From positions 16,255 to 80,254 of the forward strand of contig JAJYHK010000004.1 of the NCBI GenBank assembly GCA_021784815.1: DNA of 64,000 bases, written 5' to 3'. This document shows positions 6,514 through 57,589 of this stretch, piece after piece (the first letter of the stretch is position 1; each line of letters starts with the position of its first letter). Both the position numbers and the translations under genes were made by a program. This stretch comes from a bacterium (GTDB lineage Bacteria; Patescibacteriota; Minisyncoccia; Phycocordibacterales; Phycocordibacteraceae). The notes beneath the pieces were generated by a model. That model had not been told where the DNA came from and searched no databases. It saw nothing but the letters and a program-made list of their open reading frames with translations.

Positions 6514-8901
6514 ATGCAGGCGGATACTATGGAAGCTCCGAAGGTTGTCGGCGCGCTCGATAATCAGTTCAAGGGGCTGGTGAGCGGGGAGCTTGAGGCG
6601 CTGCGTGAACGGTACGGCTACAACGAGCTTCCGGAATTTCGCGAGAACCCGTTTATACAGTATCTCAAGAATTTCTGGGGCCCGCTCCCGTGGCTCATGG
6701 AGCTCATCGTGGTCGTCACCTATCTGTCGGGCAACCAAGTGGAGGCGTTCATTATCGTGGCGCTACTCCTCGTGAATAGCGGGATCAACCTCGTCCAGCG
6801 CCATTCGGCCGATAGAGCGCTCGCGACGCTGCGCAAGGCGATCGAGGTTACCGCGCGGGTGAAGCGCGATGGCGCGTGGCAGGTCATTGCCGCTCGCGAG
6901 CTCCTCCCGGGAGACGTTGTGCGCCTGCGCGCGGGCGACGTGATGCCAGCCGATGCAACGCTTCTTGAAGGTTCGGTGAGCGTGGACCTTTCTGCGCTCA
7001 CCGGCGAATCGCTGCCGCGGGATCTCGGGGTCGAGGAAAACGCCTACTCCGGCGGCATCGTACGCCGGGGCGAAGCGACGGCCCGCGTAACAGCGACAGG
7101 GAAGCAGACGCGCTACGGGAAGACGACGCAGCTCCTCGAGACGGCCCATCCGCCGACCCATATGGAGAAGATCGTCTTTGCTATCATTCGGTACTTCTTT
7201 CTCATTAACGTGTGCGTGGCGGTCGGCATCACCGTATTCGGCGTGCTTGTCCGCGCGTCGAGTATACAAATCGCCAATTATGACATCGTCCTCCTGCTCA
7301 TGTCGGTACCTGTAGCATTCCCGACGATGTTTATTGTCGCGCAGACCTACGGGGCGCTCCAGCTCGGGGTCGACAGCGGCACAGGCGGCGATACGGGCAA
7401 GCGTGTGCTCACGCGGCGCTTGGGCGCGGTGCAGGAAGCAGCGGTCATGGACGTGCTTTGTAGCGATAAGACCGGCACGCTCACGCTCAATCAGCTCGCG
7501 GTTTCCGCGCTTACCACCTACGGAACCTACGACGAAGCGCGCCTACTCGGTCTCGCATCGGCGGCGAGCGACACGGCCGATAAGGACTCCATCGACCAGG
7601 CTATTTTGGACCGTGCCGCGGAGATAGGCGCCGTCGTTCCGGTACGCGCAAGCTTCACCCCCTTTGATCCCTCGACGAAGCGTACGCACGCTGACGTGAT
7701 GGACGGCAACGTACCGACGGCCGTTGAAAAGGGCCTTGCCGATCTACTGCTTTCTCCCGATGTACGCTACGCGGATGCGGCGTTGTGCGATGTGGCCGAA
7801 CTAAGCACGAGGGGGCTCCGCGTGCTCGCGGTCGTCGTCTCACACGCACAGGTGGGGAAAGAGTGTGCTGGGCTCATTGGCCTCAGTGATCCGATTCGTC
7901 CCGATGCCCCCGCGCTCATTCGCGAGCTCGGCGAGCTCGGCGTGCGGATCGTCATGATTACGGGGGATGGCCGCGTGACCGCCCGCGCGGTCGCACGCGA
8001 ACTTAGTATCGAAGGCGACGTCTACACGGCGGACGAATTGAAGAGGAATCCCGATATAGCGCTCACGGGCGCCGTGTTTGCAGAAGCATATCCCGAAGAT
8101 AAGCTCACGATCATCGAGGCGCTCCAGAGGGCCGGCCACATCGTCGGCATGACAGGCGACGGGGTCAACGATGCACCAGCGCTCCATCGTGCCGAGGTGG
8201 GCATTGCGGTCCTTGGGGCGACCGAGGTTGCCAAGCAGGCGGCGAGCTTTATTTTAACGAGCGGGGGCCTCGAAGGAGTGCGCCGGGTCGTCACCGCGGG
8301 TCGCAGAGTCTATACGAGAATCCACACCTGGGTGCTCAATAAGATCGTTAAATCGATCGAATCGCTCTTCATCGGCACGGTCATTTTCGTACTTACCCAC
8401 TCGTACGTTCTCTCGCCGCTCATTGCCATTCTTATTCTCCTCTCAAACGATTTTGTCACCATATCGCTCGCCGCCGACCACACAAAGCCGATCCGCCGGC
8501 CGGTCCGGTGGAATATCCCTCTTCTGGTTGTAGGATCCTTCGTTATTGCGTTTGTGCCCTACACGTTTACCATGGGTCTCTACCTGCTTGCCCGGCATGA
8601 CGGCTACTCCTTTGCGGTGGTGCGGACCGTGGTGTACGCGTCGCTCATTTATCTCGGCGCAAGCACGGTTCTCGCCGTCCGTGCCTGGCCCTTCGGCTGG
8701 AGCGTGCGGCCAAAAGGAGTCCTCGTCGCTGCGCTCTTGTTTTCGCTCGCGTTCTCGTCGGTTGTTGCGGGGTTCGGCATATTCATCGCGCCGCTGCCTT
8801 TACGATTCTTCCCGTTCGTTATCTTAAGCACTCTCGCGAGCTTCTTCCTCATCGAGCTCGTGAAGCGTATCTCGTTTATTCAGGCGTCCGTGGGGGTTTA
8901 G
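6514..8901 (+). CDS. P-type ATPase (plasma-membrane type, H+/Mg2+-like)
   Basis: 'CSDKTGTLTLNQ' phosphorylation site and 'MTGDGVNDAPALHRAEVGIAV'; 795 aa; high GC like the core genome. Confidence 0.85.
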   Translation: MQADTMEAPKVVGALDNQFKGLVSGELEALRERYGYNELPEFRENPFIQYLKNFWGPLPWLMELIVVVTYLSGNQVEAFIIVALLLVNSGINLVQRHSADRALATLRKAIEVTARVKRDGAWQVIAARELLPGDVVRLRAGDVMPADATLLEGSVSVDLSALTGESLPRDLGVEENAYSGGIVRRGEATARVTATGKQTRYGKTTQLLETAHPPTHMEKIVFAIIRYFFLINVCVAVGITVFGVLVRASSIQIANYDIVLLLMSVPVAFPTMFIVAQTYGALQLGVDSGTGGDTGKRVLTRRLGAVQEAAVMDVLCSDKTGTLTLNQLAVSALTTYGTYDEARLLGLASAASDTADKDSIDQAILDRAAEIGAVVPVRASFTPFDPSTKRTHADVMDGNVPTAVEKGLADLLLSPDVRYADAALCDVAELSTRGLRVLAVVVSHAQVGKECAGLIGLSDPIRPDAPALIRELGELGVRIVMITGDGRVTARAVARELSIEGDVYTADELKRNPDIALTGAVFAEAYPEDKLTIIEALQRAGHIVGMTGDGVNDAPALHRAEVGIAVLGATEVAKQAASFILTSGGLEGVRRVVTAGRRVYTRIHTWVLNKIVKSIESLFIGTVIFVLTHSYVLSPLIAILILLSNDFVTISLAADHTKPIRRPVRWNIPLLVVGSFVIAFVPYTFTMGLYLLARHDGYSFAVVRTVVYASLIYLGASTVLAVRAWPFGWSVRPKGVLVAALLFSLAFSSVVAGFGIFIAPLPLRFFPFVILSTLASFFLIELVKRISFIQASVGV

Positions 8902-20221: not shown

Positions 20222-21736
20222 ATGCGAGAACGATTCATAGGCTTGCTTACCATCTTGTCCAAGCCAGCGGTTGCTATTGGCGGTGCGTTGGCCATCGGGA
20301 CGGGAATTATCGGCTTTGTCTGGTTCTCAACCTCGGTCGCGCCGGTGGGGAATTATGCAACTGTCGCTCGTGGTTCGATCACACAGTCTGTGGCCTTTTC
20401 GGGCATGGTCCAGGCGGCGCGTAGTACTGACCTGTCGTTCCAGGCTGCGGGAACTGTTGCGCAGATTAATGTGCAGGTTGGACAGCACGTGTATGCCGGG
20501 GAGGTGCTCGCGAGCCTTAGTGGTGCGGCAGCAGCAGCGGCGCTCGCGCAGGCCAATGCGAATCTCGCCATACAGCAAGCGAACCTCGCGTCACTCAAGG
20601 CTGGTACCCGTCCCGAGCAGCTCTCGATTGACGAAACCACCCTTGCGCAGGCAAAGACAGCACTTAGCAATGCGATTACCTCGGCGTACGTGACCGCGAG
20701 CGAGGCAGTGTACACCGAAGCGGATCAAGTGTTCCTCAATCCACGCACGAACAATCCGCTGCTGTCCATCCAGGTACCCGATTCAGAACTCGCACTCAAG
20801 CTCGAGACCGAACGCGCAGCGCTCGAGCCAAAGCTTGATCAGTGGCAGACAGAAGGTACGATAATGACCGCGAGCGGGGCAGAGGCGGCCCTTATGGCCG
20901 TCAACAGCTTCCTTGCGAACCTCTCGCAAGCGCTCGCGGAAACGCCGGCGGGCGGTTCAGTGACGACAGCAGAACTCGCGGGGTATGTGGCAGCCGTGAA
21001 TGCCGCGCGCACGAATACGGCAGCCGCGCTCTCAGCTGTGACGAGCGCCGATACTGCTGAAAAGAGCGCTGCGGGCGCGCTCACGCTCGCACAGTCCGGC
21101 GCCACAACCGAACAAATCGCTGCCCAACAGGCGGCTGTCGATGCGGCACAGGCGGCGATAAGCTTGGCGCAGGTTGCCGTTGCCAATACCAAAATCATTG
21201 CGCCGGTTTCAGGCGTCATCACGGTGCAAAATGCCGACCTCGGTCAAACGGTAGTGCCCGGTACGCCCCTCATCTCAATGATTGCCGACGGCGCGTACCA
21301 AGTGAAAGGATACGTTTCGGAAAATGAGGTTGTCACGGTCGCGTCCGGCGACGCCGTGAACGTCACTTTTGACGCCTATCCCGGGGTAACCTTCCCGGCG
21401 ACGGTGACCACGGTCGATCCGGCGGCTACCACGGTTAACGGAGTGCCGTCCTACGGGGTTACGGTGACTTTCTTGGGCAAGGATGAGCGCGTCAAGGCAG
21501 GTCTGACGGCCAACATGCAGATCATTACCGCGACTAAAGCGAATGCACTTACCGTGCCCTCGAGCGCAGTTATCACAAACGGGTCCCGGCAGATGGTGTA
21601 CGTGAAAGACGCGCGCGGGACGGCGACCGAGACGCCGGTAACGACCGGCATCGTGAGCGCGAGTGGCACGACTGAGATTACGAGCGGCCTTTCAGCCGGA
21701 CAGAAAGTGCTAACCTTTGGCTCAAGCGCCCTGTAA
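20222..21736 (+). CDS. HlyD/membrane-fusion-family efflux adaptor protein
   Basis: N-terminal TM, biotinyl-lipoyl-like 'YAGEVLASL', long Ala-rich coiled coil, C-terminal beta-barrel; 504 aa. Confidence 0.7.
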   Translation: MRERFIGLLTILSKPAVAIGGALAIGTGIIGFVWFSTSVAPVGNYATVARGSITQSVAFSGMVQAARSTDLSFQAAGTVAQINVQVGQHVYAGEVLASLSGAAAAAALAQANANLAIQQANLASLKAGTRPEQLSIDETTLAQAKTALSNAITSAYVTASEAVYTEADQVFLNPRTNNPLLSIQVPDSELALKLETERAALEPKLDQWQTEGTIMTASGAEAALMAVNSFLANLSQALAETPAGGSVTTAELAGYVAAVNAARTNTAAALSAVTSADTAEKSAAGALTLAQSGATTEQIAAQQAAVDAAQAAISLAQVAVANTKIIAPVSGVITVQNADLGQTVVPGTPLISMIADGAYQVKGYVSENEVVTVASGDAVNVTFDAYPGVTFPATVTTVDPAATTVNGVPSYGVTVTFLGKDERVKAGLTANMQIITATKANALTVPSSAVITNGSRQMVYVKDARGTATETPVTTGIVSASGTTEITSGLSAGQKVLTFGSSAL

Positions 21737-21748
21737 CACCGAACCGCT

Positions 21749-22411
21749 ATGGAAACCGAAACCGAACATACGACCACATCGGACGCCGCATTCTCACCGG
21801 AGCTCCGCCGCCGGCTCATCCGGTATGGCAGCGCTGCGTTCGTGATCCTTGCCGCGGCCGGCACCTATGCGTACCTACTCTCCTCAAGCCGCGAAATCGC
21901 CATAACTTCTTCGACGATTTCCGCGCCGCTCATTGACCTCTCACCGAGCGTCGGGGGCCGACTCAATGCCCTGTACGTGCATGCCGGCGATCAGGTTCCG
22001 GCAGACACCGCCGTCGCACTCGTCGGCACCGAAGTAGTGCGGACGAAAATCGCCGGACTCATCGTACAGGTTAACGATACCGTGGGCGCCCAAGTCGCGC
22101 CGGGGCAGGCGGTCGCGGAGATGATCGATCCTTCGCAGCTGCGCGTGGTAGGGAAGATCGATGAGAATAAGGGACTTGCGCAGATCCGCGTCGGGGATCC
22201 AGTACGCTTTACCGTCGATGCCTTCGGCAGCAAGATGTTCGACGGCATCGTCGACGAAGTGGCTCCGACGAGCAACCAGTCCGGCATCGTGTTTAACATT
22301 TCGGGGCAGCGCGAGACGCAGCAATTCGACGTAAAGGCGCGTTTCGATGTGAACGCCTATCCCGAGCTTAAGAACGGCATGAGCGCACGCATGTACGTGT
22401 ACCTGCGCTAG
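21749..22411 (+). CDS. Short HlyD-like membrane fusion protein
   Basis: N-terminal TM, lipoyl-like hairpin 'VHAGDQVPADTAVALV', beta-barrel C-terminus. Confidence 0.55.
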   Translation: METETEHTTTSDAAFSPELRRRLIRYGSAAFVILAAAGTYAYLLSSSREIAITSSTISAPLIDLSPSVGGRLNALYVHAGDQVPADTAVALVGTEVVRTKIAGLIVQVNDTVGAQVAPGQAVAEMIDPSQLRVVGKIDENKGLAQIRVGDPVRFTVDAFGSKMFDGIVDEVAPTSNQSGIVFNISGQRETQQFDVKARFDVNAYPELKNGMSARMYVYLR

Positions 22412-22519
22412 GATACGGGCCAATGATCAGACAGACGGCGATACAGACATGTTCGGCAGTCGGATTTGGCCTCCCGGGCCGGAGCGCCGCCGAACAGTTG
22501 TGCGCCGCCGTCCATTACT

Positions 22520-24022
22520 ATGAGTAACGATCGAACCGGGCATCCTTGGCTCGTCCTCCTTACCGTGATGGTGGGGACGCTCCTCATCGGACTCGACCGC
22601 ACGGTCGTAAACCTCGCGGTGCCGAAGATCATCGGTGATTTCGGCATCACGGTAACGACTGCCGCCTGGGTCGCGACGGCGTACATCATCACGAACGCGG
22701 TCTTCGTTCCGGTCTTCGGGAAGCTTGGCGACCTCTTGGGTAATCGTGTCATCTATCTCTGGAGCTTTGTCGGGTTCATCGCCATGTCGGTCTTGAGCGG
22801 GCTCGCATGGAACTTCGGCGCACTCGTATTCTTCCGAGCTCTTCAAGGTCTCGTAGGAGCCGCTGTGTATCCAACTGCGATGTCGCTCATCGCTAAATCA
22901 TTCACCGATACGAAGCAGCGCGCCCAGGCCCTAGGACTCTGGTCGTCTTCCTTTGCGATCTCGGCCGTCATCGGGCCGCTCTTGGGTGGGTACCTCATCG
23001 ATCAGTTTTCCTGGCGCATGGTTTTCTACATCAACTTGCCCATCGGCATTGCCGGGCTCATTATGACGCTCCTCTTCCTGCCGCATGACCGGCCGGAGGA
23101 GCGCGGCCAATTCGACTGGTTTGGCGCGGTGCTCTTGTCGGGCGTCATCTCGACTCTCGTGCTTGTCCTCGATCAGGGACAAACCTGGGGGTGGACTTCG
23201 CAGGCAAGCATCCTCTGTTACGTCATTTCAGCGCTCTTTGGCGTGCTCGTGTACTACTGGGAGACGCGCCACACACGTCCGATCGTCGATTTCCGACTGC
23301 TGAAGAACCCGACGATTGCATCCGTGCTGCTCGTCTCCTTTATCTCTTTCGGCGGTATGATGGGCGCACTTTTCTTATTGCCGGTGTTCGCTCAGTCATT
23401 TTTGGGCTACAACGCGATACAAAGCGGATACCTGTTCCTGCCCATGGGGCTTGCGCTCCCCGTATTTGCGCCGCTCGGCGCTCGGCTCTCGATCCGCTTT
23501 CATCCGCGCTACACGGTTGCGCTCGGCATGCTCGTGGGCGCACTCGGGCTCTACCTGCTTATGAATCTCGATCCGTCCATGTCCATGGGGGATTTCATCC
23601 TGCCGCTCGCGCTTTTTGGCGCCGGCCTCGGGCTCGGTATGGCACCGCTTACGAATGCTGCCACGACGGCCGTGCCGCTCCATGAGGTGGGTATGTCGTC
23701 GGGACTGCTCAACCTGGTGCGTAATGTTGGCGGCGCGTTCGGTATCGCGATATTCGGGACGCTCCTCAACAACACCATCAACCGCAATGTACTCGTCGTA
23801 GCGCAAAACTCGCACGTCAATAGCTACGCGCCCTCGGTCCTTCAGGAAGCGGCGCAGCTTATCATCATGAAAGCGGAGGTGCTCTCGTATGGCGACGTAT
23901 TCCTTTATGGCGCGCTCGCGATGTGCGCGGGCGGCCTCATCGCGCTCTTTTTCTTGAGAGTGAGCGATCAGGTCATCGACCTGTCGCCCGAGATACACGC
24001 CGAAACGATGGCGGGGGGATAG
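22520..24022 (+). CDS. MFS transporter, DHA2 (EmrB/QacA) family
   Basis: 'LDRTVVNLAVPKIIGDFG' and 'FGKLGDLLGNR' motifs; 14 TM; directly follows the two adaptor genes. Confidence 0.8.
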   Translation: MSNDRTGHPWLVLLTVMVGTLLIGLDRTVVNLAVPKIIGDFGITVTTAAWVATAYIITNAVFVPVFGKLGDLLGNRVIYLWSFVGFIAMSVLSGLAWNFGALVFFRALQGLVGAAVYPTAMSLIAKSFTDTKQRAQALGLWSSSFAISAVIGPLLGGYLIDQFSWRMVFYINLPIGIAGLIMTLLFLPHDRPEERGQFDWFGAVLLSGVISTLVLVLDQGQTWGWTSQASILCYVISALFGVLVYYWETRHTRPIVDFRLLKNPTIASVLLVSFISFGGMMGALFLLPVFAQSFLGYNAIQSGYLFLPMGLALPVFAPLGARLSIRFHPRYTVALGMLVGALGLYLLMNLDPSMSMGDFILPLALFGAGLGLGMAPLTNAATTAVPLHEVGMSSGLLNLVRNVGGAFGIAIFGTLLNNTINRNVLVVAQNSHVNSYAPSVLQEAAQLIIMKAEVLSYGDVFLYGALAMCAGGLIALFFLRVSDQVIDLSPEIHAETMAGG

Positions 24023-51053: not shown

Positions 51054-51254
51054 TTAGACCTTGCTCACGTTTACGGCGTTCGGTCCTTTCGGGCTGTTGC
51101 CAACCTCGAACGAGACCGCATCTCCTTCGCGAAGCTCATCGAACGACACGTTCGTGAGCTCGTTGCTGTGGAAGAAGAGATCCTTCGATTCGCCGTCACG
51201 CTTAATGAAGCCGAAACCCTTGTCGGTTTTCTTGGCTACGATTCCTTGCTGCAT
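51054..51254 (-). CDS. cspA: Cold-shock protein (CspA family)
   Basis: 'GIVAKKTDKGFGFIKRDG...DLFFH' RNP1/RNP2 motifs. Confidence 0.85.
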   Translation of the reverse strand: MQQGIVAKKTDKGFGFIKRDGESKDLFFHSNELTNVSFDELREGDAVSFEVGNSPKGPNAVNVSKV

Positions 51255-51349
51255 GACCATTCAATTGGTGTGACCAAAATATCAATTCAGGTTCCGAAGA
51301 GAGAAGCTCGATCCGTTACTTCTTCTAGATCCAGCCTGGTTGATGGTGT

Positions 51350-51378
51350 AACAGTAGCAATACCAGGCCATTTGTCAA
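51350..51378 (-). promoter_or_regulatory. Sigma70-like promoter for cspA (-35 TTGACA, 17 nt, -10 TACTGT), long 5' UTR
   Basis: On the minus strand, 'TTGACAaatggcctggtattgcTACTGT' lies about 100 nt upstream of the cspA ATG. Confidence 0.4.
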
Positions 51379-51481
51379 TGACTATGTGACTATTGACCTT
51401 TTATATATGGCTCGCGCGGCATTCTTTTGTTGATTCTGGACGCATTAGGTTGCGGCCGCATGGTATTTTAAAAGAGAAAAT

Positions 51482-52015
51482 ATGAGCGCCTCATTTAGCG
51501 ATCCGCGTGAGAATGTCTTGCAGGCTGGTTTGCGCGAGGGCATGCGTGTTGCGGATTTTGGTACCGGTACGGGCCACTATGCGCGCGCGGCGCTCGGAGT
51601 AGTCGGTCCGGAAGGGCGCGTGTATGCCATAGACGTGCAAGAGGACGTGCTCAAACACTCTGCGCTCGACGCGCGCGGGCACCATCATGCGATCGAAACC
51701 ATTTGGGGTGATATTGAGAAGCTGGGCGGTACCCATCTACGCGAACAGGCGCTCGATGCGATTATCCTCGCGAACACGCTTTTTCAAATAGAGCATCGTG
51801 CCGCGCTTGTTGGAGAAATCAAACGCGTACTCAAACCAGGCGGGCGATTGCTCGTGGTCGACTGGACTGGGAGCCACGGCGGTATCGGCCCGGCGCCGCA
51901 GCATGTGGTTGACGAGTACGCCGCAGAAGCGCTCTTTGCCGGTGCCGGCTTCCGTAAAGAAAAGAGTTTCCGCGCCGGGCCGCACCATTACGGCATTGTC
52001 TTTATTGCGCCATGA
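51482..52015 (+). CDS. Class I SAM-dependent methyltransferase (Methyltransf_11/25-like)
   Basis: 'VADFGTGTGHYA' SAM motif I, 'LKPGGRLLVVDW'; first gene of the pilin-like operon. Confidence 0.65.
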   Translation: MSASFSDPRENVLQAGLREGMRVADFGTGTGHYARAALGVVGPEGRVYAIDVQEDVLKHSALDARGHHHAIETIWGDIEKLGGTHLREQALDAIILANTLFQIEHRAALVGEIKRVLKPGGRLLVVDWTGSHGGIGPAPQHVVDEYAAEALFAGAGFRKEKSFRAGPHHYGIVFIAP

Positions 52016-53328
52016 AAAAACTCACGACCTTCAAAATCGTCCTTTTCGCGTTTTTTATCGTCGGCGCGCTTGCAGGGCTCGTTGCGTTTTCGCTTTATCA
52101 AGGCGGCAGTTCCGGTGCAAAAGGCGTAGGAACGGTCGTCATTTGGGGTACGCTGCCGCAAGCCAGCATGGATGCCACGCTGCAGGCCGCGAAACAGAGC
52201 GATCAAAGTCTCAAGGGCGTGTCCTACGTAGAGAAGAATCCCGCAACGCTCGCGGCGGACCTCGCGACTGCGATCGCCACGGACAACGCGCCGGGCCTTG
52301 TGCTTGCGTCGCAACAGGAGCTCTACTCGATCCACCGGTTTCTCGCGTCTATCCCGCTCTCCTCGCTTCCGGTGAGCACGTTTGAGAATACGTTCATTAG
52401 CGAAGGGAATCTGTTCCGTGTGCCGAATAACGGCGGCTATTATGGGATGCCGTTCCTCGTCGATCCGCTCGTGCTGTTTTCAAATAACGCTATTCTTGCA
52501 TCGGACAATATTGCGCTCCCGCCCTCAACCTGGGATGCGCTCACCGGGCTCGTGCCAAACGTTGCGGTGTACTCGTCGACTCGGCAGGTTACGCGCGGGC
52601 TGATTGCTCTCGGCTCGTACGATAACGTGCAAAATGCGCAAGCAATCATTTCCGCGATCCTGCTTCAAGAAGGAGTATCAGTAACGGCGTATGGCGGGGC
52701 CGGGAATGTGGTGGCGAACCTGAACGAATCACAGGGAGCGAGCGGCCAGCTGCCCGGAGAGGCGGCAGTGCGCTTTTACACGCAGTTCGCCGACCCGTCG
52801 AAGGTCTCGTACACTTGGAACCAGTCGATGCCGAACTCACAGCAAGCATTTTCCTCGGGCGACCTCGCGCTCTACCTTGGTTTCGCCTCCGAGGCGAGCT
52901 ACTTCACGAGTGCGAATCCGAATCTTGCGTTTACCGTGTCGCCGCTTCCGCAGCTTGCGGGTGCCGCGACAAAAACGACGTACGGGAAGCTCTATGCATT
53001 CATGGTTCCGCGCGCAAGTCCGAACATCGCGGGCGCGTATGCCGCCGCGTCAGCACTCATCGGTATCTCCGATGAAAAGGCCGCCGCGGTAGCGACAGGA
53101 TTAGCGCCGGCGGTCCGACAGGTACTCGCGAGCGCGTCGGCGCAAGACCCTGTTGCCGCCGTCGCCTATGCGTCGGCGCTCTATGCCGCGGGGTGGCTTT
53201 CCCCAGCTCCTGCCGACACTGACCGGGTCTTTTCGGCTATGATTACGAGTGTGCTGAACGGCAGCGCTACCTTTGCGACCGCGGTGAGTACGGCGCAATC
53301 CTCGCTCAACGCGCTGCTCCAATCATGA
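52012..53328 (+). CDS. Extracellular solute-binding-protein-like (SBP family 1-like), membrane-anchored, orphan
   Basis: N-terminal TM 'IVLFAFFIVGALAGLVAF', then 'VVIWGTL...GYYGMPFLVDPLVLFSN' resembling ABC sugar-binding proteins. No permease or ATPase nearby. 4-nt overlap with the flanking genes. Confidence 0.45.
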   Translation: MKKLTTFKIVLFAFFIVGALAGLVAFSLYQGGSSGAKGVGTVVIWGTLPQASMDATLQAAKQSDQSLKGVSYVEKNPATLAADLATAIATDNAPGLVLASQQELYSIHRFLASIPLSSLPVSTFENTFISEGNLFRVPNNGGYYGMPFLVDPLVLFSNNAILASDNIALPPSTWDALTGLVPNVAVYSSTRQVTRGLIALGSYDNVQNAQAIISAILLQEGVSVTAYGGAGNVVANLNESQGASGQLPGEAAVRFYTQFADPSKVSYTWNQSMPNSQQAFSSGDLALYLGFASEASYFTSANPNLAFTVSPLPQLAGAATKTTYGKLYAFMVPRASPNIAGAYAAASALIGISDEKAAAVATGLAPAVRQVLASASAQDPVAAVAYASALYAAGWLSPAPADTDRVFSAMITSVLNGSATFATAVSTAQSSLNALLQS

Positions 53329-53837
53329 ACCCTCTCAATTTCCAGCTCCAGTGCTATCGCGCAAGAGCGCTTGTCTCCCTCCTGGCCGGTCTGCTGTTTT
53401 TGGTCATTCTTATTCCACACTTGGCTTTCGCTGCGGTGTCGAATACTAATACTAACGGAACTCCCGTGAATTCCCCGACCTACGGAGGAACAAACGGAAT
53501 GCCCATGTCTAATCCTGGTCAAGGCGGGGGAGGGTCATACTCATTTCCCAATCCGCTCGGCCAAGGGACAACACTCACGACGCTCCTTATGGATATCTTG
53601 AACCTCGTCATGCAGCTCGGCACGGTCGCGGTCATCCTCATGCTCGTATATACCGGTTTCAAATACGTCGCTGCACGGGGCAACCCGGGGGCGATCACAA
53701 GTGCACATCAGGCGCTCGCGTGGACCGTGGTTGGTGCGCTCATTCTGCTCGGCTCCGCAGCGATTGCGCAAGGTATCTGCGCCACGGTTGTCGCCCTTGG
53801 CAACGGTTCCGGCAGCTGTCCTTCGCTCCTGCCATGA
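53325..53837 (+). CDS. Pilin-like paralog 1 (signal peptide + Gly/Asn-rich region + two TM helices)
   Basis: Signal peptide 'LLAGLLFLVILIPHLAFAA', then 'LVMQLGTVAVILMLVYTGFKYVAARGNPGAITSAHQALAWTVVGALILLGSAAIA'. Same TM-loop-TM architecture as paralogs 2-6. Confidence 0.5.
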   Translation: MNPLNFQLQCYRARALVSLLAGLLFLVILIPHLAFAAVSNTNTNGTPVNSPTYGGTNGMPMSNPGQGGGGSYSFPNPLGQGTTLTTLLMDILNLVMQLGTVAVILMLVYTGFKYVAARGNPGAITSAHQALAWTVVGALILLGSAAIAQGICATVVALGNGSGSCPSLLP

Positions 53838-54106
53838 TAACGTTCGCACAGCTTGTCGGATCGGGTACCACGGGCATCATCGGCCTTATTAATGTCGTAG
53901 TCATCCCCGTTATCTTCACACTTGCCTTTGCCGCATTCATTTGGGGCGTCGTGAACGCGTTTATCTTGCACGGCGGTGACGGTACCACGCAAAAGAAGGG
54001 CCGCGATGTGGCGCTCTGGGGTCTCATTGGTCTCGTGCTGCTTTTTTCCATCTGGAGCGTCGTGAACATCCTTTTATCCACGGTTGGCATCGTGCCTGGC
54101 AGCTAG
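53834..54106 (+). CDS. VirB2/T4SS-pilin-like small membrane protein, paralog 2
   Basis: 'GIIGLINVVVIPVIFTLAFAAFIWG...HGGDGTTQKKGRDVALWGLIGLVLLFSIWSVVNILLS' (two TM helices, basic Gly loop). Confidence 0.55.
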   Translation: MITFAQLVGSGTTGIIGLINVVVIPVIFTLAFAAFIWGVVNAFILHGGDGTTQKKGRDVALWGLIGLVLLFSIWSVVNILLSTVGIVPGS

Positions 54107-54125
54107 CTCTGCTATCGTTAGGTAT

Positions 54126-54578
54126 ATGTATTTTCCTACTCCATTCACTTTCGGCGGTTGCTTCACTGGGATCTGCTATATGAGTAACCTCATTGTTGGC
54201 ACTATCAACAATGTGCTCGTTCCGGTTATATTCGCGATAGCTTTTATTGTCTTCTTGTGGGGCATTGCGAATGCGTACGTGATTTCTCGCGGCAATGAAG
54301 CAAAAGTAAAACAGGGCCATCAGCTTATTTTGTGGGGTCTCGTCGGTTTCTTTTTTATGCTCTCGATATGGGGTCTCGTAAACATCATTGCGAATACGTT
54401 CGGTATCTCCGGCGGTCCCGGACCTCCGACTCCAGTCTACTTCCCCTATACATACGGACAGTCGCCGGTGTATCCCGGGTACTCAAGCCCTACCCCAGGT
54501 GCATATAATTCCACGCCAAATACAAATCCCGCTCCATCAACCGCAGCTCCTAGTAGTGTAAGTCCCGGGGTACTATGA
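54126..54578 (+). CDS. VirB2/T4SS-pilin-like small membrane protein, paralog 3 (Pro/Tyr/Ser-rich C-terminal tail)
   Basis: 'NNVLVPVIFAIAFIVFLWG...SRGNEAKVKQGHQLILWGLVGFFFMLSIWGLVNIIAN' then 'PGPPTPVYFPYTYGQSPVYPGYSSPTPG...'. Start uncertain: 54126 has an AGG SD; 54180 is the alternative. Confidence 0.55.
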   Translation: MYFPTPFTFGGCFTGICYMSNLIVGTINNVLVPVIFAIAFIVFLWGIANAYVISRGNEAKVKQGHQLILWGLVGFFFMLSIWGLVNIIANTFGISGGPGPPTPVYFPYTYGQSPVYPGYSSPTPGAYNSTPNTNPAPSTAAPSSVSPGVL

Positions 54579-54613
54579 CAGTACATTGCTTTCAAGCACT
54601 TAATTAACTCTGT

Positions 54614-54916
54614 ATGAGTAGCGGCATAAATATCCCCTATATCCAGAGCTGGGCAGGAGGCATCATTGGGCTCATAAATTACGTGCTGATCCCGGTACTC
54701 CTTGCCATTGCGTTCTTTGTTTTCTTGCTCGGGGTTCTGCGTGCCTATATTTTCTCGAGAGGCGATGCTAAAGCGCGAGAGAGTGGTCATCAGCTTGTCC
54801 TTTGGGGTGCTGTCGGTTTTACTATCGTGCTTTCGGTCTGGGGTCTCGTCGCGCTGGTTGGCTCGACCTTCGGGCTTATCTCGGGCGGCGCGGCGCCGCC
54901 CTACCCGACGCTCTAG
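54614..54916 (+). CDS. VirB2/T4SS-pilin-like small membrane protein, paralog 4
   Basis: 'GGIIGLINYVLIPVLLAIAFFVFLLG...SRGDAKARESGHQLVLWGAVGFTIVLSVWGLVALVGS'. Confidence 0.55.
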   Translation: MSSGINIPYIQSWAGGIIGLINYVLIPVLLAIAFFVFLLGVLRAYIFSRGDAKARESGHQLVLWGAVGFTIVLSVWGLVALVGSTFGLISGGAAPPYPTL

Positions 54917-54997
54917 CTATCCACACGCTGCCGCAGAACGGCTCGCATTCACCGGGGAGTGCGTATACAATGAAATCGTTATCCGTTTATCTTATCT

Positions 54998-55375
54998 ATG
55001 AAAAAAGCTTTCGTTCTCGCTGCTAGCACCATTGTTGCTGCACTTCTGCCTGCGATTGCCTTTGCCGCGCAGATCAACAACATCAACGACATCGGCGCAT
55101 TTATCGTCACTACGATCAACAGTCTCATTGTGCCGGTTCTCTTCGCTATTGCTTTCGTCGTTTTCCTCTTCGGTGCCTTTCAGGCGTTCATTCTGGGCCA
55201 CAATAGTGATGATGCGCATAAGAAAGGCAAGAACCTTATGCTCTACGGCCTCGTTGGCTTCTTTGTGATGGTCTCGGTGTGGGGCCTCGTGAACATCCTC
55301 ACCGGTACTATTGGCTTCGGCAACACCAACGGTCCGACGGGCGGCTACCCCTCGGCTGGCGTGAACGTTCCGTAG
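54998..55375 (+). CDS. VirB2/T4SS-pilin-like small membrane protein, paralog 5 (with cleavable signal peptide)
   Basis: Signal 'MKKAFVLAASTIVAALLPAIAFAA', then 'INSLIVPVLFAIAFVVFLFG...GHNSDDAHKKGKNLMLYGLVGFFVMVSVWGLVNILTG'. Confidence 0.6.
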   Translation: MKKAFVLAASTIVAALLPAIAFAAQINNINDIGAFIVTTINSLIVPVLFAIAFVVFLFGAFQAFILGHNSDDAHKKGKNLMLYGLVGFFVMVSVWGLVNILTGTIGFGNTNGPTGGYPSAGVNVP

Positions 55376-55449
55376 CGACGATGGGACGAGATGATGCGCG
55401 CCCGTGCTTTGCGCAGGCGCGTATCATGCATTCAAGCGTAAGGTGACCT

Positions 55450-55728
55450 ATGCCCGTCATAAACTCATTTCTCGACAGCGTGATCGTACAGATCATCAAT
55501 CCGATCATCTTGCTGCTTTCCGCGGGCGCGTTTGTTGTGCTCGCGTGGGGCATCTTCGAGTTCATCTGGAAGGCGGACGACGATAAGGCGCGGGAAACGG
55601 GACGGAGAGCCATTCTTTGGGGCTTTGTCGGGCTCGCGATCATCTTTGGCGCGTACGGCATCATCAACACCGCGCTCGGTGCGTTTAATATCGCGCCTGT
55701 TACGAAAGTAACTCAGACGCAGCCTTAG
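55450..55728 (+). CDS. VirB2/T4SS-pilin-like small membrane protein, paralog 6
   Basis: 'IINPIILLLSAGAFVVLAWG...KADDDKARETGRRAILWGFVGLAIIFGAYGIINTALG'. Confidence 0.5.
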   Translation: MPVINSFLDSVIVQIINPIILLLSAGAFVVLAWGIFEFIWKADDDKARETGRRAILWGFVGLAIIFGAYGIINTALGAFNIAPVTKVTQTQP

Positions 55729-55748
55729 GCCGATCGGGGAAAAGAAGA

Positions 55749-55784
55749 ACCGCGTCATCCACCAAGGTGGATGACGCGGTTTGC
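55749..55784 (+). terminator. Intrinsic terminator ending the pilin-like operon
   Basis: Perfect 14-bp stem 'accgcgtcatccac-caag-gtggatgacgcggt' followed by 'ttgcg'. Confidence 0.6.
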
Positions 55785-55822
55785 GCGTGGGAGATGTGCA
55801 GGTTGTTTCCGGGCGTGGCAGG

Positions 55823-56539
55823 TTATGTAGGTGCGCTTTGCGGGCAGGGTGCGGACTGTTTTCCTGGCAAAACGCCCGTGTGGACGAGTCCGTATTCGAA
55901 CCGTATCGGACCGCTTGTGCTGCGGAACCGGTACGTGTTAGCCACTCCTCGCTCATATTCCCATTGAACGGTCTCCCCAACAGGCAGCCAATAGCAGTAT
56001 CGGTACCCGGGAGGGAAGACGGTACCTTCTGTCGGCAAGGCTGGTGTCCAGGTATCCGTGAGGACGCATAGATGCACTGTGCCGAGTTTGTAAGGCATCG
56101 TGCAGGTGTTCTGAGGTCGTGGCGGCAGACCCATGACCTCGGGCCAGAAGAGCTGGATTCCTGCAAAGAGAAAGATGAGCGCCCACACCCCGGCGAATCC
56201 TTTTCCGATTTTCTGGACAAGTGGTTCCGTTCTCGGTATGGCCAGCAAGATAGCCACGGGGAATCCGACCAGAAATATGACCGGGAGCGGGTTATGCAGC
56301 ACATGCTTGACCAAGTTGAGCGGCGTGGACCATTGTACGGTCGCGAAGAGCCAGATAGTATAGGCAATTGCCGCGACGCTTCCCATGACCGCGTAGGCTC
56401 GGACTGCAGACCTCGAAATCAACGTGTCTTTCATGACGCCAAACGGCACTTTGAAGAACGCCGCCGCCACGAAAAGCACGCATACTGCCATGCCCGCGGC
56501 AACAAGCACACCATCCATGCCATTGAAGAGGCCGAGCAT
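55823..56539 (-). CDS. Hypothetical membrane protein (possible NfeD-like partner of the SPFH protein)
   Basis: N-terminal half has 4-5 TM helices. The C-terminal half is Cys/Trp/Pro-rich; extent and frame are uncertain. Directly downstream of the SPFH gene. Confidence 0.3.
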   Translation of the reverse strand: MLGLFNGMDGVLVAAGMAVCVLFVAAAFFKVPFGVMKDTLISRSAVRAYAVMGSVAAIAYTIWLFATVQWSTPLNLVKHVLHNPLPVIFLVGFPVAILLAIPRTEPLVQKIGKGFAGVWALIFLFAGIQLFWPEVMGLPPRPQNTCTMPYKLGTVHLCVLTDTWTPALPTEGTVFPPGYRYCYWLPVGETVQWEYERGVANTYRFRSTSGPIRFEYGLVHTGVLPGKQSAPCPQSAPT

Positions 56540-56542
56540 TTT

Positions 56543-57589
56543 TTACTCCTTACTGCCAAGGTTAAACGTTCCGAGCACGCCGGAGAGGCCATCGCCGACC
56601 AGGGTCATGTTCGGTTTCGTCTCTCTGAGGACGTTGAGTCCTTGTTGGGTGTTGTAGAAGTCGATGGCTTGCTTGTGGCTCATACCAAGCGTATCCATAA
56701 TTAGCCTGATGGGCTCTATGTAGCCGGCCACTTGGGCTTGGCGTTGTTCGGCTTCGAGCTTGCCTTCGACCGCCTTCTGGCGGAGGGTAACCCATTCTTC
56801 GGGCAGGTCGATGTCTTCAATCACCAGGCTCTTGCCCTCGGGGCGGGGGTATACGCCGACTTCCTTGAACGCGGGCGCAATAATTCCCACGACGGTATCG
56901 GCGATATCGTCGCGATTGGTGTTCGCCTCGTCGATGGTGATTGATTGCAGTCTGGGTCGCAGGACGCTGTCAACCAGGCTGTAGAGGCGCTTGCCGGGGT
57001 CCGTGAAGCCATAGGCCCACCTGTAGACATCCTCTTCAGGATTTGTATTACCGGGCTCTCCGACTTCGACGAACAAGGTCGCGTCAATCGGAGCGGATAT
57101 GCCGCCAACTGACGGAATGCCCTCCGCTACCACCGCGGTACTTACAAAGTCGATTTTGTTGTCTCGATCGAGCGCATAGAGCCGTATCGGCATCGAGCGG
57201 AGATCCCCGACAGAGACCTCGACGAGCTTGCGCTCTTTCCGGTCTGAGACAGACACCGGGCGAATACGGTCAATACCGATGACACGCACGTGCAAGCCGT
57301 TGAAGAAGGTCGTGTGGTATTTGCCGAGCCTCTCGACGACGGCGTACTGCATTTCTTCAAGGGTCATGGCTCCTTTCCATACGCAGAAGCCGAACCAGTT
57401 GAGTGCAACGAACACGCCGGCGCCCGGCAGACCGAATACCCAGGCGACCGTCATTGCCGCGAGTCCAGGGGTAACCCAAACCAAGAATGCGCCGAACCCG
57501 ACACGCTTTCTTGAATGGTGGGTGTGAAGATCGATGTAGAAGCTGACGGCAGTTCCGGCCGTAGCGAAGCCCAAAAGGAGTGCCCACAT
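56543..57589 (-). CDS. SPFH/band-7 (stomatin/prohibitin-like) domain protein
   Basis: Two N-terminal TM helices, then a 250-aa domain and a C-terminal coiled coil 'LRQKAVEGKLEAEQRQAQVAG'. Assigned from the N-terminal TM + globular domain + coiled-coil architecture only; no motif-level support. Confidence 0.45.
   Translation of the reverse strand: MWALLLGFATAGTAVSFYIDLHTHHSRKRVGFGAFLVWVTPGLAAMTVAWVFGLPGAGVFVALNWFGFCVWKGAMTLEEMQYAVVERLGKYHTTFFNGLHVRVIGIDRIRPVSVSDRKERKLVEVSVGDLRSMPIRLYALDRDNKIDFVSTAVVAEGIPSVGGISAPIDATLFVEVGEPGNTNPEEDVYRWAYGFTDPGKRLYSLVDSVLRPRLQSITIDEANTNRDDIADTVVGIIAPAFKEVGVYPRPEGKSLVIEDIDLPEEWVTLRQKAVEGKLEAEQRQAQVAGYIEPIRLIMDTLGMSHKQAIDFYNTQQGLNVLRETKPNMTLVGDGLSGVLGTFNLGSKE

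What the first reader, a model, noticed from the sequence alone, without database searches (positions are those of the whole stretch)
51482..55790. Eight-gene translationally coupled operon: SAM methyltransferase, orphan solute-binding-like protein and six tandem, diverged VirB2/T4SS-pilin-like paralogs
**Seen in the sequence.** Six consecutive small ORFs (90-170 aa) share a hydrophobic helix 'L(I/V)PV(I/L)FA(I/L)AF(I/V)VFLWG', a basic Gly-containing loop '(S/H)(R/G)Gx(x)AKxK(Q/K)G(H/K)xL(I/L)LWG' and a second helix 'LVGFxxxLSVWGLVNI'. Two of them (paralogs 1 and 5) have cleavable signal peptides. Two (3 and 5) carry Pro/Gly/Tyr-rich tails. Genes 1-4 overlap by 4 nt (ATGA). The unit ends in a strong terminator.

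**From established knowledge.** This two-helix layout is that of TrbC/VirB2-type conjugative or T4SS pilins. The small pilin-like proteins reported from Patescibacteria/CPR genomes have the same layout.

**Inference.** Such tandem arrays suggest antigenic or functional diversification of a surface filament. The co-transcribed methyltransferase could be a modifying enzyme, and the anchored SBP-like protein a filament- or host-binding component. No VirB4/VirB6/VirD4 is present in this window.
Basis: partly seen in the sequence, partly recalled or inferred. Interest (0 to 1): 0.8.

Follow-up and report, generated by a model that had tools for sequence, protein, structure and literature searches.

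The report
Conserved six-pilin cassette in Patescibacteria
This is a chromosomal operon of an ultrasmall Patescibacteria (Kaiserbacteria-type) bacterium that encodes six different VirB2-like "type IV secretion pilin" proteins together with a methyltransferase and a surface sugar-binding-type protein. Such pilin arrays are already known from this phylum, but the fixed six-gene set and its two partner genes have not been described in the papers I could search.

Summary
An eight-gene, same-strand block lies at 51482-55728: a class I SAM methyltransferase (MT), a membrane-anchored family-1 solute-binding protein (SBP), and six small two-helix proteins (P1-P6). It ends in a 16-bp hairpin.

All six small proteins match Pfam PF18895 (T4SS_pilin). 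Four score above the curated cut-off. P1 also passes TrbC/VirB2. No VirB4, VirB6 or VirD4 gene lies in the window.

The kind is already known. Tandem VirB2-like arrays of 2-11 genes were catalogued in 383 Patescibacteria assemblies (PMC12102498). A six-gene array, each gene essential, is described in Southlakia epibionticum (PMC10633639).

What I add:
- **Conserved cassette.** In about 80 Kaiserbacteria species the same MT-SBP-P1..P6 cassette recurs in the same order.
- **One-to-one orthology.** 387 of 390 proteins have their best hit in the same slot. Identity is 53-72% within a slot and 24-46% between slots. dN/dS is 0.04-0.22.
- **Variable flanks.** gyrA usually lies upstream, while the immediate flanks vary.
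- **Natural fusions.** Distant low-GC relatives keep MT-SBP-pilins but fuse three hairpin units into one polypeptide.

This argues against antigenic variation and for six non-redundant subunits of one assembly. That the assembly is a T4SS pilus or conduit is inferred, not shown. The roles of MT and SBP remain untested.

The parts
51261..51481 (+). Intergenic region between the divergent cspA-like gene (51054-51260, - strand) and the methyltransferase. This is the presumed promoter region of the cassette.
   Evidence: Gene map. The consensus scan found no sigma-70-like site here, so the promoter is inferred from position only.
51482..52015 (+). Class I SAM-dependent methyltransferase (MT), 177 aa, cytoplasmic. 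First gene of the cassette.
   Evidence: Pfam Methyltransf_31, _11 and _25, E = 6e-16 to 1e-13. The closest solved structure is 3dh0, a methyltransferase of unknown function, E = 8e-21. No NCBIfam model reaches its cut-off. Orthologs are 62-82% identical and lie directly upstream of SBP in 79 of the 81 comparison loci. They are 42-45% identical in distant lineages. dN/dS is 0.07.
52012..53328 (+). Family-1 solute-binding-protein-like ectoprotein (SBP), 438 aa. It has one N-terminal hydrophobic anchor (residues 3-32), no cysteine and therefore no lipobox. There is no adjacent permease or ATPase gene.
   Evidence: Pfam SBP_bac_8, 59.7 bits. Profile hits to solved sugar, maltose and maltodextrin SBPs, E = 3e-9 to 1e-3. 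Hydropathy. More than 800 homologs; the top 120 are 54-75% identical. Many invariant aromatic residues. ATGA overlaps with MT and P1.
53325..53837 (+). P1: TrbC/VirB2-type pilin-like protein, 170 aa. Layout: signal peptide, Gly/Asn/Thr-rich linker, NPL motif, two hydrophobic helices, and a C-terminal GICATV...GSC pair of cysteines.
   Evidence: PF18895 35.8 bits and PF04956 30.8 bits, both above their cut-offs. Ortholog alignment A4. Orthologs carry Cys-rich extensions of variable length. dN/dS is 0.22.
53834..54106 (+). P2: pilin-like two-helix protein, 90 aa, no signal peptide.
   Evidence: PF18895 24.7 bits, E = 2.5e-5, just under the 26.6-bit cut-off. The slot-2 ortholog in L002 carries an unmarked (strong) PF18895 hit. 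Slot-2 orthologs have a median identity of 64%.
54126..54578 (+). P3: pilin-like two-helix protein with a Pro/Gly/Tyr/Ser-rich C-terminal tail, 150 aa from ATG 54126. The alternative start at ATG 54180 gives 132 aa.
   Evidence: PF18895 26.8 bits. The GGCxxGIC motif upstream of 54180 is shared with the L007 ortholog and others. A rough heuristic finds a signal peptide in 41 of 65 orthologs, but this copy lacks one.
54614..54916 (+). P4: pilin-like two-helix protein, 100 aa. This slot varies most in length across species, from 95 to 466 aa.
   Evidence: PF18895 22.3 bits, E = 1.4e-4, under the cut-off. Long orthologs score 30.9-34.3 bits and carry Cys/Ser/Thr/Gly-rich extensions. Slot identity has a median of 53%.
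54998..55375 (+). P5: pilin-like protein with a conserved N-terminal signal peptide, 125 aa.
   Evidence: PF18895 31.6 bits. 800 homologs, the top 120 being 60-73% identical apart from the identical self-match P0121, and all carry PF18895. The AF2 model has a signal helix at 2-23 and a hairpin of helices 29-66 and 71-104, with core pLDDT of 77-92.
55391..55427 (+). Stem-loop in the P5-P6 spacer, function unknown. It could be an attenuator or an RNA-stability element.
   Evidence: RNA fold gives -31 kcal/mol and z = -2.6. P5 and P6 are nearly contiguous in most relatives, so the element is unlikely to be conserved.
55450..55728 (+). P6: pilin-like two-helix protein, 92 aa, no signal peptide. 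Always the last gene of the array.
   Evidence: PF18895 27.3 bits. Slot identity has a median of 69%. P6-type proteins are also the last gene in distant cassettes L087 and L090.
55747..55782 (.). 16-bp GC-rich hairpin between the cassette and the convergent gene 55823-56539 (- strand). Probable bidirectional terminator.
   Evidence: -39.4 kcal/mol, z = -6.1. The U-tract is weak on the + strand and better on the - strand.

Best explanation
**What it is.** The block is the chromosomal VirB2-like pilin cassette of a Kaiserbacteria-type Patescibacterium.

**Shown by the data.**
- Six paralogous PF18895 hairpin proteins are co-oriented with a SAM methyltransferase (MT) and an anchored family-1 solute-binding protein (SBP).
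- The eight genes form a unit that has been kept intact since before the Kaiserbacteria radiation.
- An MT-SBP-multi-pilin form of the same cassette also exists in distant, low-GC Patescibacteria.
- Each of the six slots is a separate orthologous lineage under purifying selection.

**Inferred mechanism.**
1. The proteins insert into the cytoplasmic membrane as helical hairpins, with both termini outside and the basic loop inside. P1 and P5 here, and P3 in most species, insert by the Sec route with leader cleavage. The others insert without a leader.
2. They then co-assemble in fixed proportions as non-redundant subunits of one envelope-spanning structure.
3. The most likely structure is the pilus or conduit of the Patescibacteria T4SS. 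Its VirB4 ATPase is encoded elsewhere in the genome.
4. The Cys-rich N- or C-terminal extensions of P1 and P4 orthologs, which vary in length, are the exposed and lineage-variable parts.
5. The SBP, rich in invariant aromatic residues, is a surface glycan or ligand binder that works with the structure in host recognition or substrate capture.
6. The MT modifies a component of the system. Whether the target is a pilin or a lipid is unknown.
For: **Family.**
- All six proteins hit PF18895. P1, P3, P5 and P6 pass the gathering score, and P1 also passes PF04956.
- All six also give full-length, sub-threshold hits to NCBIfam NF045849, a Mycoplasma ICE pilin-like conjugal transfer protein.
- The P1 and P5 groups are linked by hhalign with E = 4.6e-5.

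**Fold and topology.**
- Each protein has two hydrophobic helices and a charged loop.
- The AF2 model of P5 is a hairpin.
- Extensions occur at either terminus in orthologs, which fits both termini lying on the same side of the membrane.

**Unit integrity.**
- 64 of the 81 comparison loci hold six pilin ORFs after SBP, in the same order. Most of the rest are cut contigs.
- The immediate flanks vary. CspA is present in 3 of the 81 loci, orf238 in 1 and Band7 in 7.
- MT and SBP overlap or abut in most loci.

**Orthology and constraint.**
- 387 of 390 proteins have their best non-self hit in their own slot.
- Identity is 53-72% within a slot and 24-46% between slots.
- dN/dS is 0.04-0.22.

**Heteromer.**
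- In L087, L090 and a JGI contig, three P2/P3/P4-type units are one polypeptide inside the same MT-SBP cassette.
- In S. epibionticum all six tandem PF18895 genes are individually essential (PMC10633639 supplement).

**A T4SS exists in the lineage.** VirB4 is reported present in 4 of 5 named Kaiserbacteria assemblies that carry this cassette (PMC12102498 Table S1).
Against: - No VirB4, VirB6, VirB8 or VirD4 gene lies within 51 kb upstream or 8 kb downstream here. None lies within about 10 kb in the relatives examined. The link to a T4SS therefore rests on family names and on co-occurrence in the lineage.
- No pilus has been seen in any Patescibacterium. PMC12857230 calls it a possibility.
- Fold searches with the P5 model returned only generic helical hairpins and no VirB2 or TraA.
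- Profiles of P1 and P5 find nothing in the PDB by sequence.
- P2 and P4 fall just under the Pfam cut-off.
- dS is saturated (1.3-3.7), so the dN/dS values are rough.
- Gene order is broadly conserved in this lineage. For example, gyrA lies upstream in 54 of 56 loci. Synteny alone is therefore weak evidence of functional coupling.
- The substrates of MT and SBP are unknown.
Confidence: 0.6

Rival explanations
1. **A T4SS-independent apparatus.** The SBP and the hairpin proteins (12 transmembrane helices in six proteins here, 14-16 in the fused forms) form a self-contained membrane complex. It would serve ligand capture, uptake or adhesion. The pilin family name would then be only a fold-level resemblance.
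For: - The cassette is never next to T4SS genes in the loci examined, but it is always next to an SBP that has no permease or ATPase gene beside it.
- Fusing three hairpins into one chain suits a fixed membrane complex better than a homopolymeric filament.
- The fold evidence is non-specific.
Against: - The PF18895, PF04956 and NF045849 models all come from conjugation and T4SS contexts.
- In S. epibionticum the homologous six-gene array lies inside the T4SS cluster.
- In 1135 of 1948 assemblies the pilin genes lie near virB4 (PMC12102498).
- The cassette has no energising component.
- Family-1 SBPs are otherwise known only with ABC transporters (established knowledge).
Confidence: 0.15
2. **Antigenic or host-range variation array.** The paralogs are interchangeable major subunits that diversified by tandem duplication to vary the filament surface.
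For: - Paralogs are only 17-48% identical within the genome.
- PMC12102498 proposes this idea by analogy with Bartonella and Anaplasma.
- P1 and P4 orthologs carry highly variable Cys-rich extensions.
Against: - Fixed number, fixed order and one-to-one orthology hold across about 80 species.
- dN/dS is far below 1 for all six.
- There are no recent duplicates.
- Three units are fused into one chain in other lineages.
- All six homologs are individually essential in S. epibionticum.
- Variation is confined to the appended tails, not the cores.
Confidence: 0.05
3. **Operon of convenience.** MT and SBP are unrelated housekeeping genes that merely share a transcript with the pilin genes. Only P1-P6 form the functional system.
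For: - MT is a generic small-molecule-type class I methyltransferase with no specific family.
- The S. epibionticum array has no MT or SBP.
- Overall gene order is conserved in this lineage (gyrA).
Against: - MT-SBP-pilins stay together at GyrA 62%, MT 42-45% and SBP 32-33% identity, in 34-35% GC genomes.
- The closer flanking genes turn over.
- Start and stop codons overlap at MT/SBP/P1 here. MT and SBP overlap or abut in most relatives.
Confidence: 0.15
4. **Small toxic or lytic membrane peptides.** The proteins would be bacteriocins, holins or similar.
For: Small size and two hydrophobic helices.
Against: - The cassette has no immunity, exporter, lysin or phage genes.
- The location is housekeeping chromosomal and is conserved across species.
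- Selection is purifying.
- Significant pilin-family profile hits.
Confidence: 0.02

Closest known systems
Pilin array SEML1_0014-0019 of Candidatus Southlakia epibionticum ML1 (Saccharimonadia). Sources: Wang et al. 2023, Cell (PMC10633639); reviewed in PMC12857230.
   Same: - Six tandem, co-oriented, sequence-divergent PF18895 genes of 103-185 aa on the chromosome of a Patescibacterium.
- Some members also hit TrbC/VirB2.
- Each gene is non-redundant. There this is shown by essentiality in Tn-seq. Here it is inferred from one-to-one orthology and purifying selection.
   Different: - The S. epibionticum array lies in the T4SS cluster (VirB4-, VirB6- and PrgI-like genes) next to dnaA/dnaN/recF, and has no methyltransferase or SBP.
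- Here the array follows MT and SBP downstream of gyrA, with no T4SS gene within the 64 kb window.
- Whether the two sets of six are orthologous slot by slot was not tested.
VirB2 arrays of Patescibacteria catalogued by Quinonero-Coronel et al. 2025 (PMC12102498).
   Same: - The definition fits. Arrays hold 2-11 tandem genes hitting PF04956 or PF18895 at E < 1e-3, with an average identity of 25% and a maximum of 54% within an array.
- In that survey, pilin genes were not near virB4 in 813 of 1948 assemblies.
- All six proteins here meet their thresholds.
   Different: - That survey stresses Microgenomatia and Saccharimonadia and interprets arrays as possible variation for host range.
- It does not mention a methyltransferase or SBP partner, slot-wise orthology, gyrA linkage or fused multi-hairpin proteins.
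TrbC/VirB2 conjugative pilins of diderm T4SS, such as Agrobacterium VirB2, RP4 TrbC and F TraA (Pfam PF04956).
   Same: - A small two-helix hairpin with a basic loop.
- A long leader on some members.
- P1 passes the PF04956 gathering score.
   Different: - Those pilins are usually a single gene inside the virB/trb/tra operon of a diderm. Their assembly into a lipid-bound pilus has been shown experimentally (established knowledge).
- Here there are six paralogs in a monoderm-type cell, unlinked to the machinery, and no filament has been shown.
- There is no detectable sequence or specific fold match to solved pilins.
Mbov_0395 family pilin-like conjugal transfer protein of Mycoplasma ICEs (NCBIfam NF045849).
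   Same: All six proteins align over the full 80-residue model, with E = 4e-4 to 2e-8. This is a monoderm MPF-FATA-type context, as proposed for the Patescibacteria T4SS (PMC12102498).
   Different: Scores of 20-34 bits are below the 40-bit cut-off. The family is a single gene within an ICE, not a chromosomal six-gene set.
Family-1 (CUT1-type) ABC-transporter solute-binding proteins, for example maltose/maltodextrin-binding proteins.
   Same: The 438-aa protein matches SBP_bac_8 and SBP_bac_1, and solved sugar SBPs.
   Different: There is no permease or ATPase gene in the cassette, here or in any relative. The protein is anchored by an uncleaved-looking hydrophobic segment, not a lipobox. It is invariably followed by pilin-like genes.

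Membership tests
Pfam PF18895 T4SS_pilin | Whole-protein score at or above the gathering score of 26.6 bits. | tested here: met
   - Above the cut-off: P1 35.8, P3 26.8, P5 31.6 and P6 27.3 bits.
- Below the cut-off: P2 24.7 and P4 22.3 bits, with E = 2.5e-5 and 1.4e-4.
- Slot-2 and slot-4 orthologs in relatives do pass.
- The feature is therefore met for four of the six proteins directly, and for the other two through their orthologs.
Pfam PF18895 T4SS_pilin | Two hydrophobic helices joined by a short polar loop (helical hairpin). | tested here: met
   Hydropathy scans. The AF2 model of P5 has helices 29-66 and 71-104.
Patescibacteria VirB2 array (as defined in PMC12102498) | Two to eleven genes in tandem, or separated by one non-pilin gene, each hitting PF04956 or PF18895 at i-E < 0.001 with more than 50% profile coverage. 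| tested here: met
   Six adjacent genes, with E = 8.7e-9 to 1.4e-4. The matched profile spans 51 to 67 of 71 positions. Definition.
Patescibacteria VirB2 array (as defined in PMC12102498) | Host genome is a Patescibacterium that encodes VirB4. | tested here: inconclusive
   - The lineage is Kaiserbacteria/Paceibacteria.
- VirB4 is listed as present in 4 of 5 named assemblies that carry the cassette.
- The genome of this window could not be scanned beyond 64 kb. No VirB4 is in the window.
TrbC/VirB2 conjugative pilin (PF04956) | Score at or above the gathering score of 27.9 bits. | tested here: inconclusive
   P1 scores 30.8 bits, which meets the cut-off. P5 scores 13.9 and P6 15.2 bits, which do not. 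P2-P4 give no hit.
TrbC/VirB2 conjugative pilin (PF04956) | Encoded within or next to the T4SS machinery genes (virB4, virB6 and others). | tested here: not met
   No T4SS component is among the ORFs of the window. None lies within about 10 kb in relatives.
TrbC/VirB2 conjugative pilin (PF04956) | Fold superposes on solved VirB2, TraA or TrbC-type pilins. | tested here: inconclusive
TrbC/VirB2 conjugative pilin (PF04956) | Leader cleavage and polymerisation into an extracellular, lipid-bound pilus. | not testable with these tools
   This needs proteomics and cryo-EM or cryo-ET. The only evidence here is sequence: Sec-type leaders on P1 and P5.
Type IV pilin (T4P, class III signal peptide) | N-terminal prepilin motif G|(F/M)xxxE, cleaved by PilD. 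| tested here: not met
   The motif is absent from all six proteins. They have two hydrophobic helices, not one.
ABC-transporter solute-binding protein, family 1 | SBP_bac_1 or SBP_bac_8 domain. | tested here: met
   SBP_bac_8 scores 59.7 bits against a cut-off of 27. Homologs carry PF13416 and PF01547. Matches to solved sugar SBPs.
ABC-transporter solute-binding protein, family 1 | Genetic linkage to cognate permease and ATPase genes. | tested here: not met
   No BPD_transp or ABC_tran gene is in the cassette here or in any relative. Permeases encoded elsewhere in the genome could not be checked.
NCBIfam NF045849, Mbov_0395 pilin-like conjugal transfer protein | Score at or above the curated cut-off of 40 bits. 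| tested here: not met
   Scores are 20-33.7 bits for the six proteins. The relationship is distant and does not amount to membership.

The most novel reading that the evidence does not exclude
**Reading.** The cassette encodes a previously unrecognised, self-contained envelope apparatus of Patescibacteria. An anchored glycan-binding SBP would dock onto an obligate hetero-oligomer of six or more VirB2-fold hairpin proteins, fused three-in-one in some lineages. The complex would form an uptake or host-contact conduit that works without VirB4.

**What it would mean.** A new way of coupling an SBP to a membrane channel, and a key to how these reduced cells take material from their hosts.

**Milder version.** The Patescibacteria T4SS pilus is an obligate six-subunit heteropolymer with its own dedicated receptor protein and methyltransferase.
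Probability: 0.12. Interest if true: 0.85.

Novelty: new variant of a known kind. Interest (0 to 1): 0.42.

Why it matters
The role of the Patescibacteria T4SS and its unexpected pilin genes is an open question. The system is essential in the one species tested, yet its function is described as completely unknown (PMC11665869, PMC12857230).

This locus adds three testable constraints:
1. The pilin-like genes form a fixed, non-redundant set, not a variation array. This favours a heteromeric structure.
2. Natural three-in-one fusions suggest which units may sit side by side.
3. Two conserved partner genes, a sugar-type SBP and a small methyltransferase, are candidate specificity and modification factors. 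Nobody appears to have examined them.

If the partnership is functional, it gives biochemists two soluble handles on an otherwise intractable membrane system. If not, the locus is simply one more catalogued pilin array.

Tried and rejected
2. **Profile searches of PDB sequences.** The P5 group and the P1 group gave no hits even at E <= 10.
3. **AF2 model of the SBP.** A 15-sequence alignment gave mean pLDDT 36.6. The model is unusable, so no ligand-site analysis was done.
4. **Table S3 of PMC12102498.** I looked for per-genome T4SS components and VirB4 proximity in Kaiserbacteria. The stored copy is cut before those genomes. Only the VirB4 presence column of Table S1 could be used.
5. **Whole-protein homolog search with P1.** It gave only 10 hits because of the word index. 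Orthologs were taken from the loci instead.
6. **Promoter scan.** No sigma-70-like site lies upstream of MT.
7. **Type IV (T4P) pilin reading.** Rejected: no prepilin motif.
8. **Bacteriocin or holin reading.** Rejected on context and selection.
9. **dN/dS.** Computed only against the closest relative, L007. dS is saturated, so the values are indicative only.
10. **Signal-peptide heuristic across orthologs.** It is crude, and it fails for slots 1 and 5 because the profiles include the leader. It was used only qualitatively.

Full report
**1. Observation**

The + strand between 51482 and 55728 carries eight co-oriented ORFs.

| Gene | Coordinates | Length |
|---|---|---|
| Methyltransferase (MT) | 51482-52015 | 177 aa |
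| Solute-binding-like protein (SBP) | 52012-53328 | 438 aa |
| P1 | 53325-53837 | 170 aa |
| P2 | 53834-54106 | 90 aa |
| P3 | 54126/54180-54578 | 150/132 aa |
| P4 | 54614-54916 | 100 aa |
| P5 | 54998-55375 | 125 aa |
| P6 | 55450-55728 | 92 aa |

- ATGA overlaps join MT/SBP, SBP/P1 and P1/P2. The remaining genes are 19-81 nt apart, so only the first half of the block is translationally coupled.
- Each small protein has two hydrophobic stretches separated by a short charged loop. P1 and P5 have an additional N-terminal Sec-type leader ending in AFA|A.
- A 16-bp hairpin at 55747-55782 (-39.4 kcal/mol, z = -6.1) lies between the cassette and a convergent gene. Its U-tract is better on the minus strand, so it looks bidirectional.
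P1 is only 17-25% identical to the others.
- P3 probably begins at ATG 54126. The GGCxxGIC motif upstream of the next ATG is conserved in orthologs.

**2. Family assignment**

- All six small proteins hit Pfam PF18895 (T4SS_pilin). P1 (35.8 bits), P5 (31.6), P6 (27.3) and P3 (26.8) pass the 26.6-bit gathering score. P2 (24.7) and P4 (22.3) fall just under it.
- P1 also passes TrbC/VirB2, PF04956, with 30.8 bits against a cut-off of 27.9.
- All six also align end to end with NCBIfam NF045849, a pilin-like conjugal transfer protein of Mycoplasma ICEs. E-values are 4e-4 to 2e-8, below the curated cut-off.
- A profile of P5 orthologs matches a profile of P1 orthologs over both helices, with E = 4.6e-5.
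- AlphaFold2 models P5 as a leader helix plus a hairpin of helices 29-66 and 71-104, with core pLDDT of 77-92.
- None of the six has a type IV prepilin motif.
- MT is a generic class I SAM enzyme. Its closest solved relative is 3dh0, of unknown function, and no NCBIfam model reaches its cut-off.
- The 438-aa protein is a family-1, sugar-type SBP. It has one N-terminal hydrophobic anchor and no cysteine, so it is not a lipoprotein.

**3. Organism and surroundings**

- The SBP has more than 800 homologs. The best 120 are 54-75% identical. Where named, they come from Candidatus Kaiserbacteria, Paceibacterota or Minisyncoccia.
- The window is otherwise housekeeping: gyrA, a sigma-70 factor, cspA, IF-2, ftsZ/ftsA, tRNA synthetases, LepA and ten tRNAs.
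- None of the ORFs scanned is a VirB4, VirB6, VirB8, VirD4 or relaxase. No further pilin-like ORF exists in the window.
- The same contig is present in run SRR13178631.

**4. Comparative genomics: the main new result**

Conservation of the cassette in Kaiserbacteria:
- A scan of GTDB species representatives with an SBP alignment found 142 relatives, and 80 loci were fetched.
- I classified every + strand ORF by BLASTP against the eight window proteins. 64 of the 81 loci in the comparison set hold six pilin ORFs after SBP. Most of the rest are truncated contigs.
- In 55 loci every slot best-matches the window paralog of the same rank.

Six orthologous groups:
- In an all-against-all comparison of 390 proteins, 387 have their best non-self hit in their own slot.
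- Median identity is 53-72% within a slot and 24-46% between slots.
- Against the closest relative (L007), dN/dS is 0.04-0.22 for the six proteins, 0.07-0.09 for MT and SBP, and 0.04 for gyrA. dS is saturated, so these are rough values.

The block behaves as a unit:
- gyrA lies upstream in 54 of 56 loci that have enough sequence.
- The genes immediately flanking the cassette turn over. CspA is present in 3 loci, Band7 in 7 and orf238 in 1.

Where variation is found:
- P1 and P4 orthologs in some species carry Cys/Ser/Thr/Gly-rich extensions of 100-350 aa.
- These sit either after a leader at the N-terminus or at the C-terminus, and contain no recognisable domain.
- Extensions at either end fit a hairpin with both termini outside.

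**5. Deeper relatives and fusions**

- A profile of the P5 group finds 9,869 representatives at E <= 1e-3 among 1.84 billion clusters.
- Many of the best hits are proteins of 300-370 aa holding two or three hairpin units in one chain.
- Three of them were traced to their contigs. L087, L090 and a JGI contig all carry MT (172-175 aa), SBP (429-435 aa) and a pilin series that includes the triple-unit protein. In L087 this again lies directly after gyrA.
- L087 and L090, the two with DNA in hand, have 34-35% GC. Their identity to the window is 42-45% for MT and 32-33% for SBP. GyrA, present only in L087, is 62% identical.
- The TrbC-like P1 type, the leader-bearing P5 type and the terminal P6 type keep their relative order.
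- The MT-SBP-pilin partnership is therefore much older than the Kaiserbacteria.
- The fusions suggest that the P2/P3/P4-type units act together in one assembly.

**6. What is already known**

- PMC12102498 searched 3,035 Patescibacteria genomes with PF04956 and PF18895, among other T4SS profiles.
  - It found VirB2-like proteins in 1,948 VirB4-positive assemblies, near virB4 in 1,135 of them.
  - It found 441 arrays of 2-11 genes in 383 assemblies, with an average identity of 25%.
  - It suggests a role in host-range versatility.
  - It does not mention a methyltransferase partner, an SBP partner or Kaiserbacteria.
- In S. epibionticum ML1 the genes SEML1_0014-0019 are six tandem PF18895 genes of 103-185 aa. 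Each scored essential. They lie beside the VirB6-like and other T4SS genes near dnaA/recF, without MT or SBP (main text).
- Reviews call the function of this T4SS unknown and the pilus a possibility.
- Table S1 of PMC12102498 lists VirB4 as present in 4 of 5 named Kaiserbacteria assemblies that I found to carry the cassette.
- A full-text search for Patescibacteria, VirB2, pilin and solute-binding protein found no paper that links them.

**7. Interpretation**

Shown:
- Family membership of the six proteins.
- The hairpin layout.
- Integrity of the cassette as a unit.
- Slot-wise orthology and constraint.
- The natural fusions.
- Absence of T4SS genes nearby.

Inferred:
- The six proteins are non-redundant subunits of one envelope structure. 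The most likely candidate is the pilus or conduit of the T4SS encoded elsewhere in the genome.
- The variable tails of P1 and P4 are the exposed parts.
- The SBP is a surface ligand binder.
- The MT modifies a component.

Main rival: a T4SS-independent complex of SBP plus hairpin proteins. It cannot be excluded, because the only link to a T4SS is the family annotation plus co-occurrence in the lineage.

Bacteriocin or holin readings do not fit the context.

**8. Verdict**

- The finding is real and correctly assigned to its family, but it belongs to a published kind.
- It differs from the described examples in three ways: its conserved MT and SBP partners, its detachment from virB4 and linkage to gyrA, and the clear evidence that the six genes are a fixed heteromeric set.
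- I rate it a new variant of a known kind, of moderate interest.

Noticed in passing
L087 10001-11011; L090 2906-3979; proteins P0251, P0252, P0254, P0260, P0268, P0269, P0274: Single polypeptides of 300-370 aa contain two or three tandem T4SS_pilin hairpin units joined by linkers of 20-40 aa. Three were traced to contigs that carry the same MT-SBP-pilin cassette, and two of those (L087, L090) have 34-35% GC. These natural fusions hint at which units may be neighbours in the assembly.
   Followed up: partly
L050, L038, L039, L086, L051, L015 (slot 4); L050, L039, L009, L042, L016 (slot 1): P1 and P4 orthologs in some species carry Cys/Ser/Thr/Gly-rich extensions of 100-350 aa, some with repeated small disulfide-type modules. 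The extensions sit at either the N- or the C-terminus. The only Pfam matches are weak ones to EB, knottin-like or WAP modules.
   Followed up: partly
window 54084-54180: Most P3 orthologs have a signal peptide and a Gly-rich segment before a conserved CxxxxC motif. The window copy and its closest relative L007 have lost the leader and start just before the motif. Automatic gene calls (L001) place the start further downstream, at the ATG at 54180.
   Followed up: partly
window 55391-55427: A 12+4 bp stem-loop (-31 kcal/mol, z = -2.6) lies in the P5-P6 spacer. In most relatives P5 and P6 are almost contiguous, so the element is probably lineage-specific.
   Followed up: no
window 55823-56539 (- strand): A convergent 238-aa ORF with about four hydrophobic segments and a Cys-containing C-terminal domain has no Pfam hit. 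It was found in only 1 of the 81 related loci. It is followed by a Band_7/SPFH gene at 56543-57589.
   Followed up: no
window 968-3565 and 6514-8901: Two P-type cation ATPases lie within 6 kb of each other at the left end of the window. Next to them is a GDPD phosphodiesterase on the opposite strand.
   Followed up: no
window 20222-22411: Two adjacent HlyD-type membrane-fusion-protein genes (504 and 220 aa) are followed by an MFS transporter at 22466-24022. An efflux-type arrangement is unexpected in a cell thought to lack an outer membrane.
   Followed up: no
L003 15987-16442 compared with L002: Two assemblies of nearly the same Kaiserbacteria locus differ by a called 151-aa HNH-endonuclease-like gene downstream of the cassette.
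   Followed up: no
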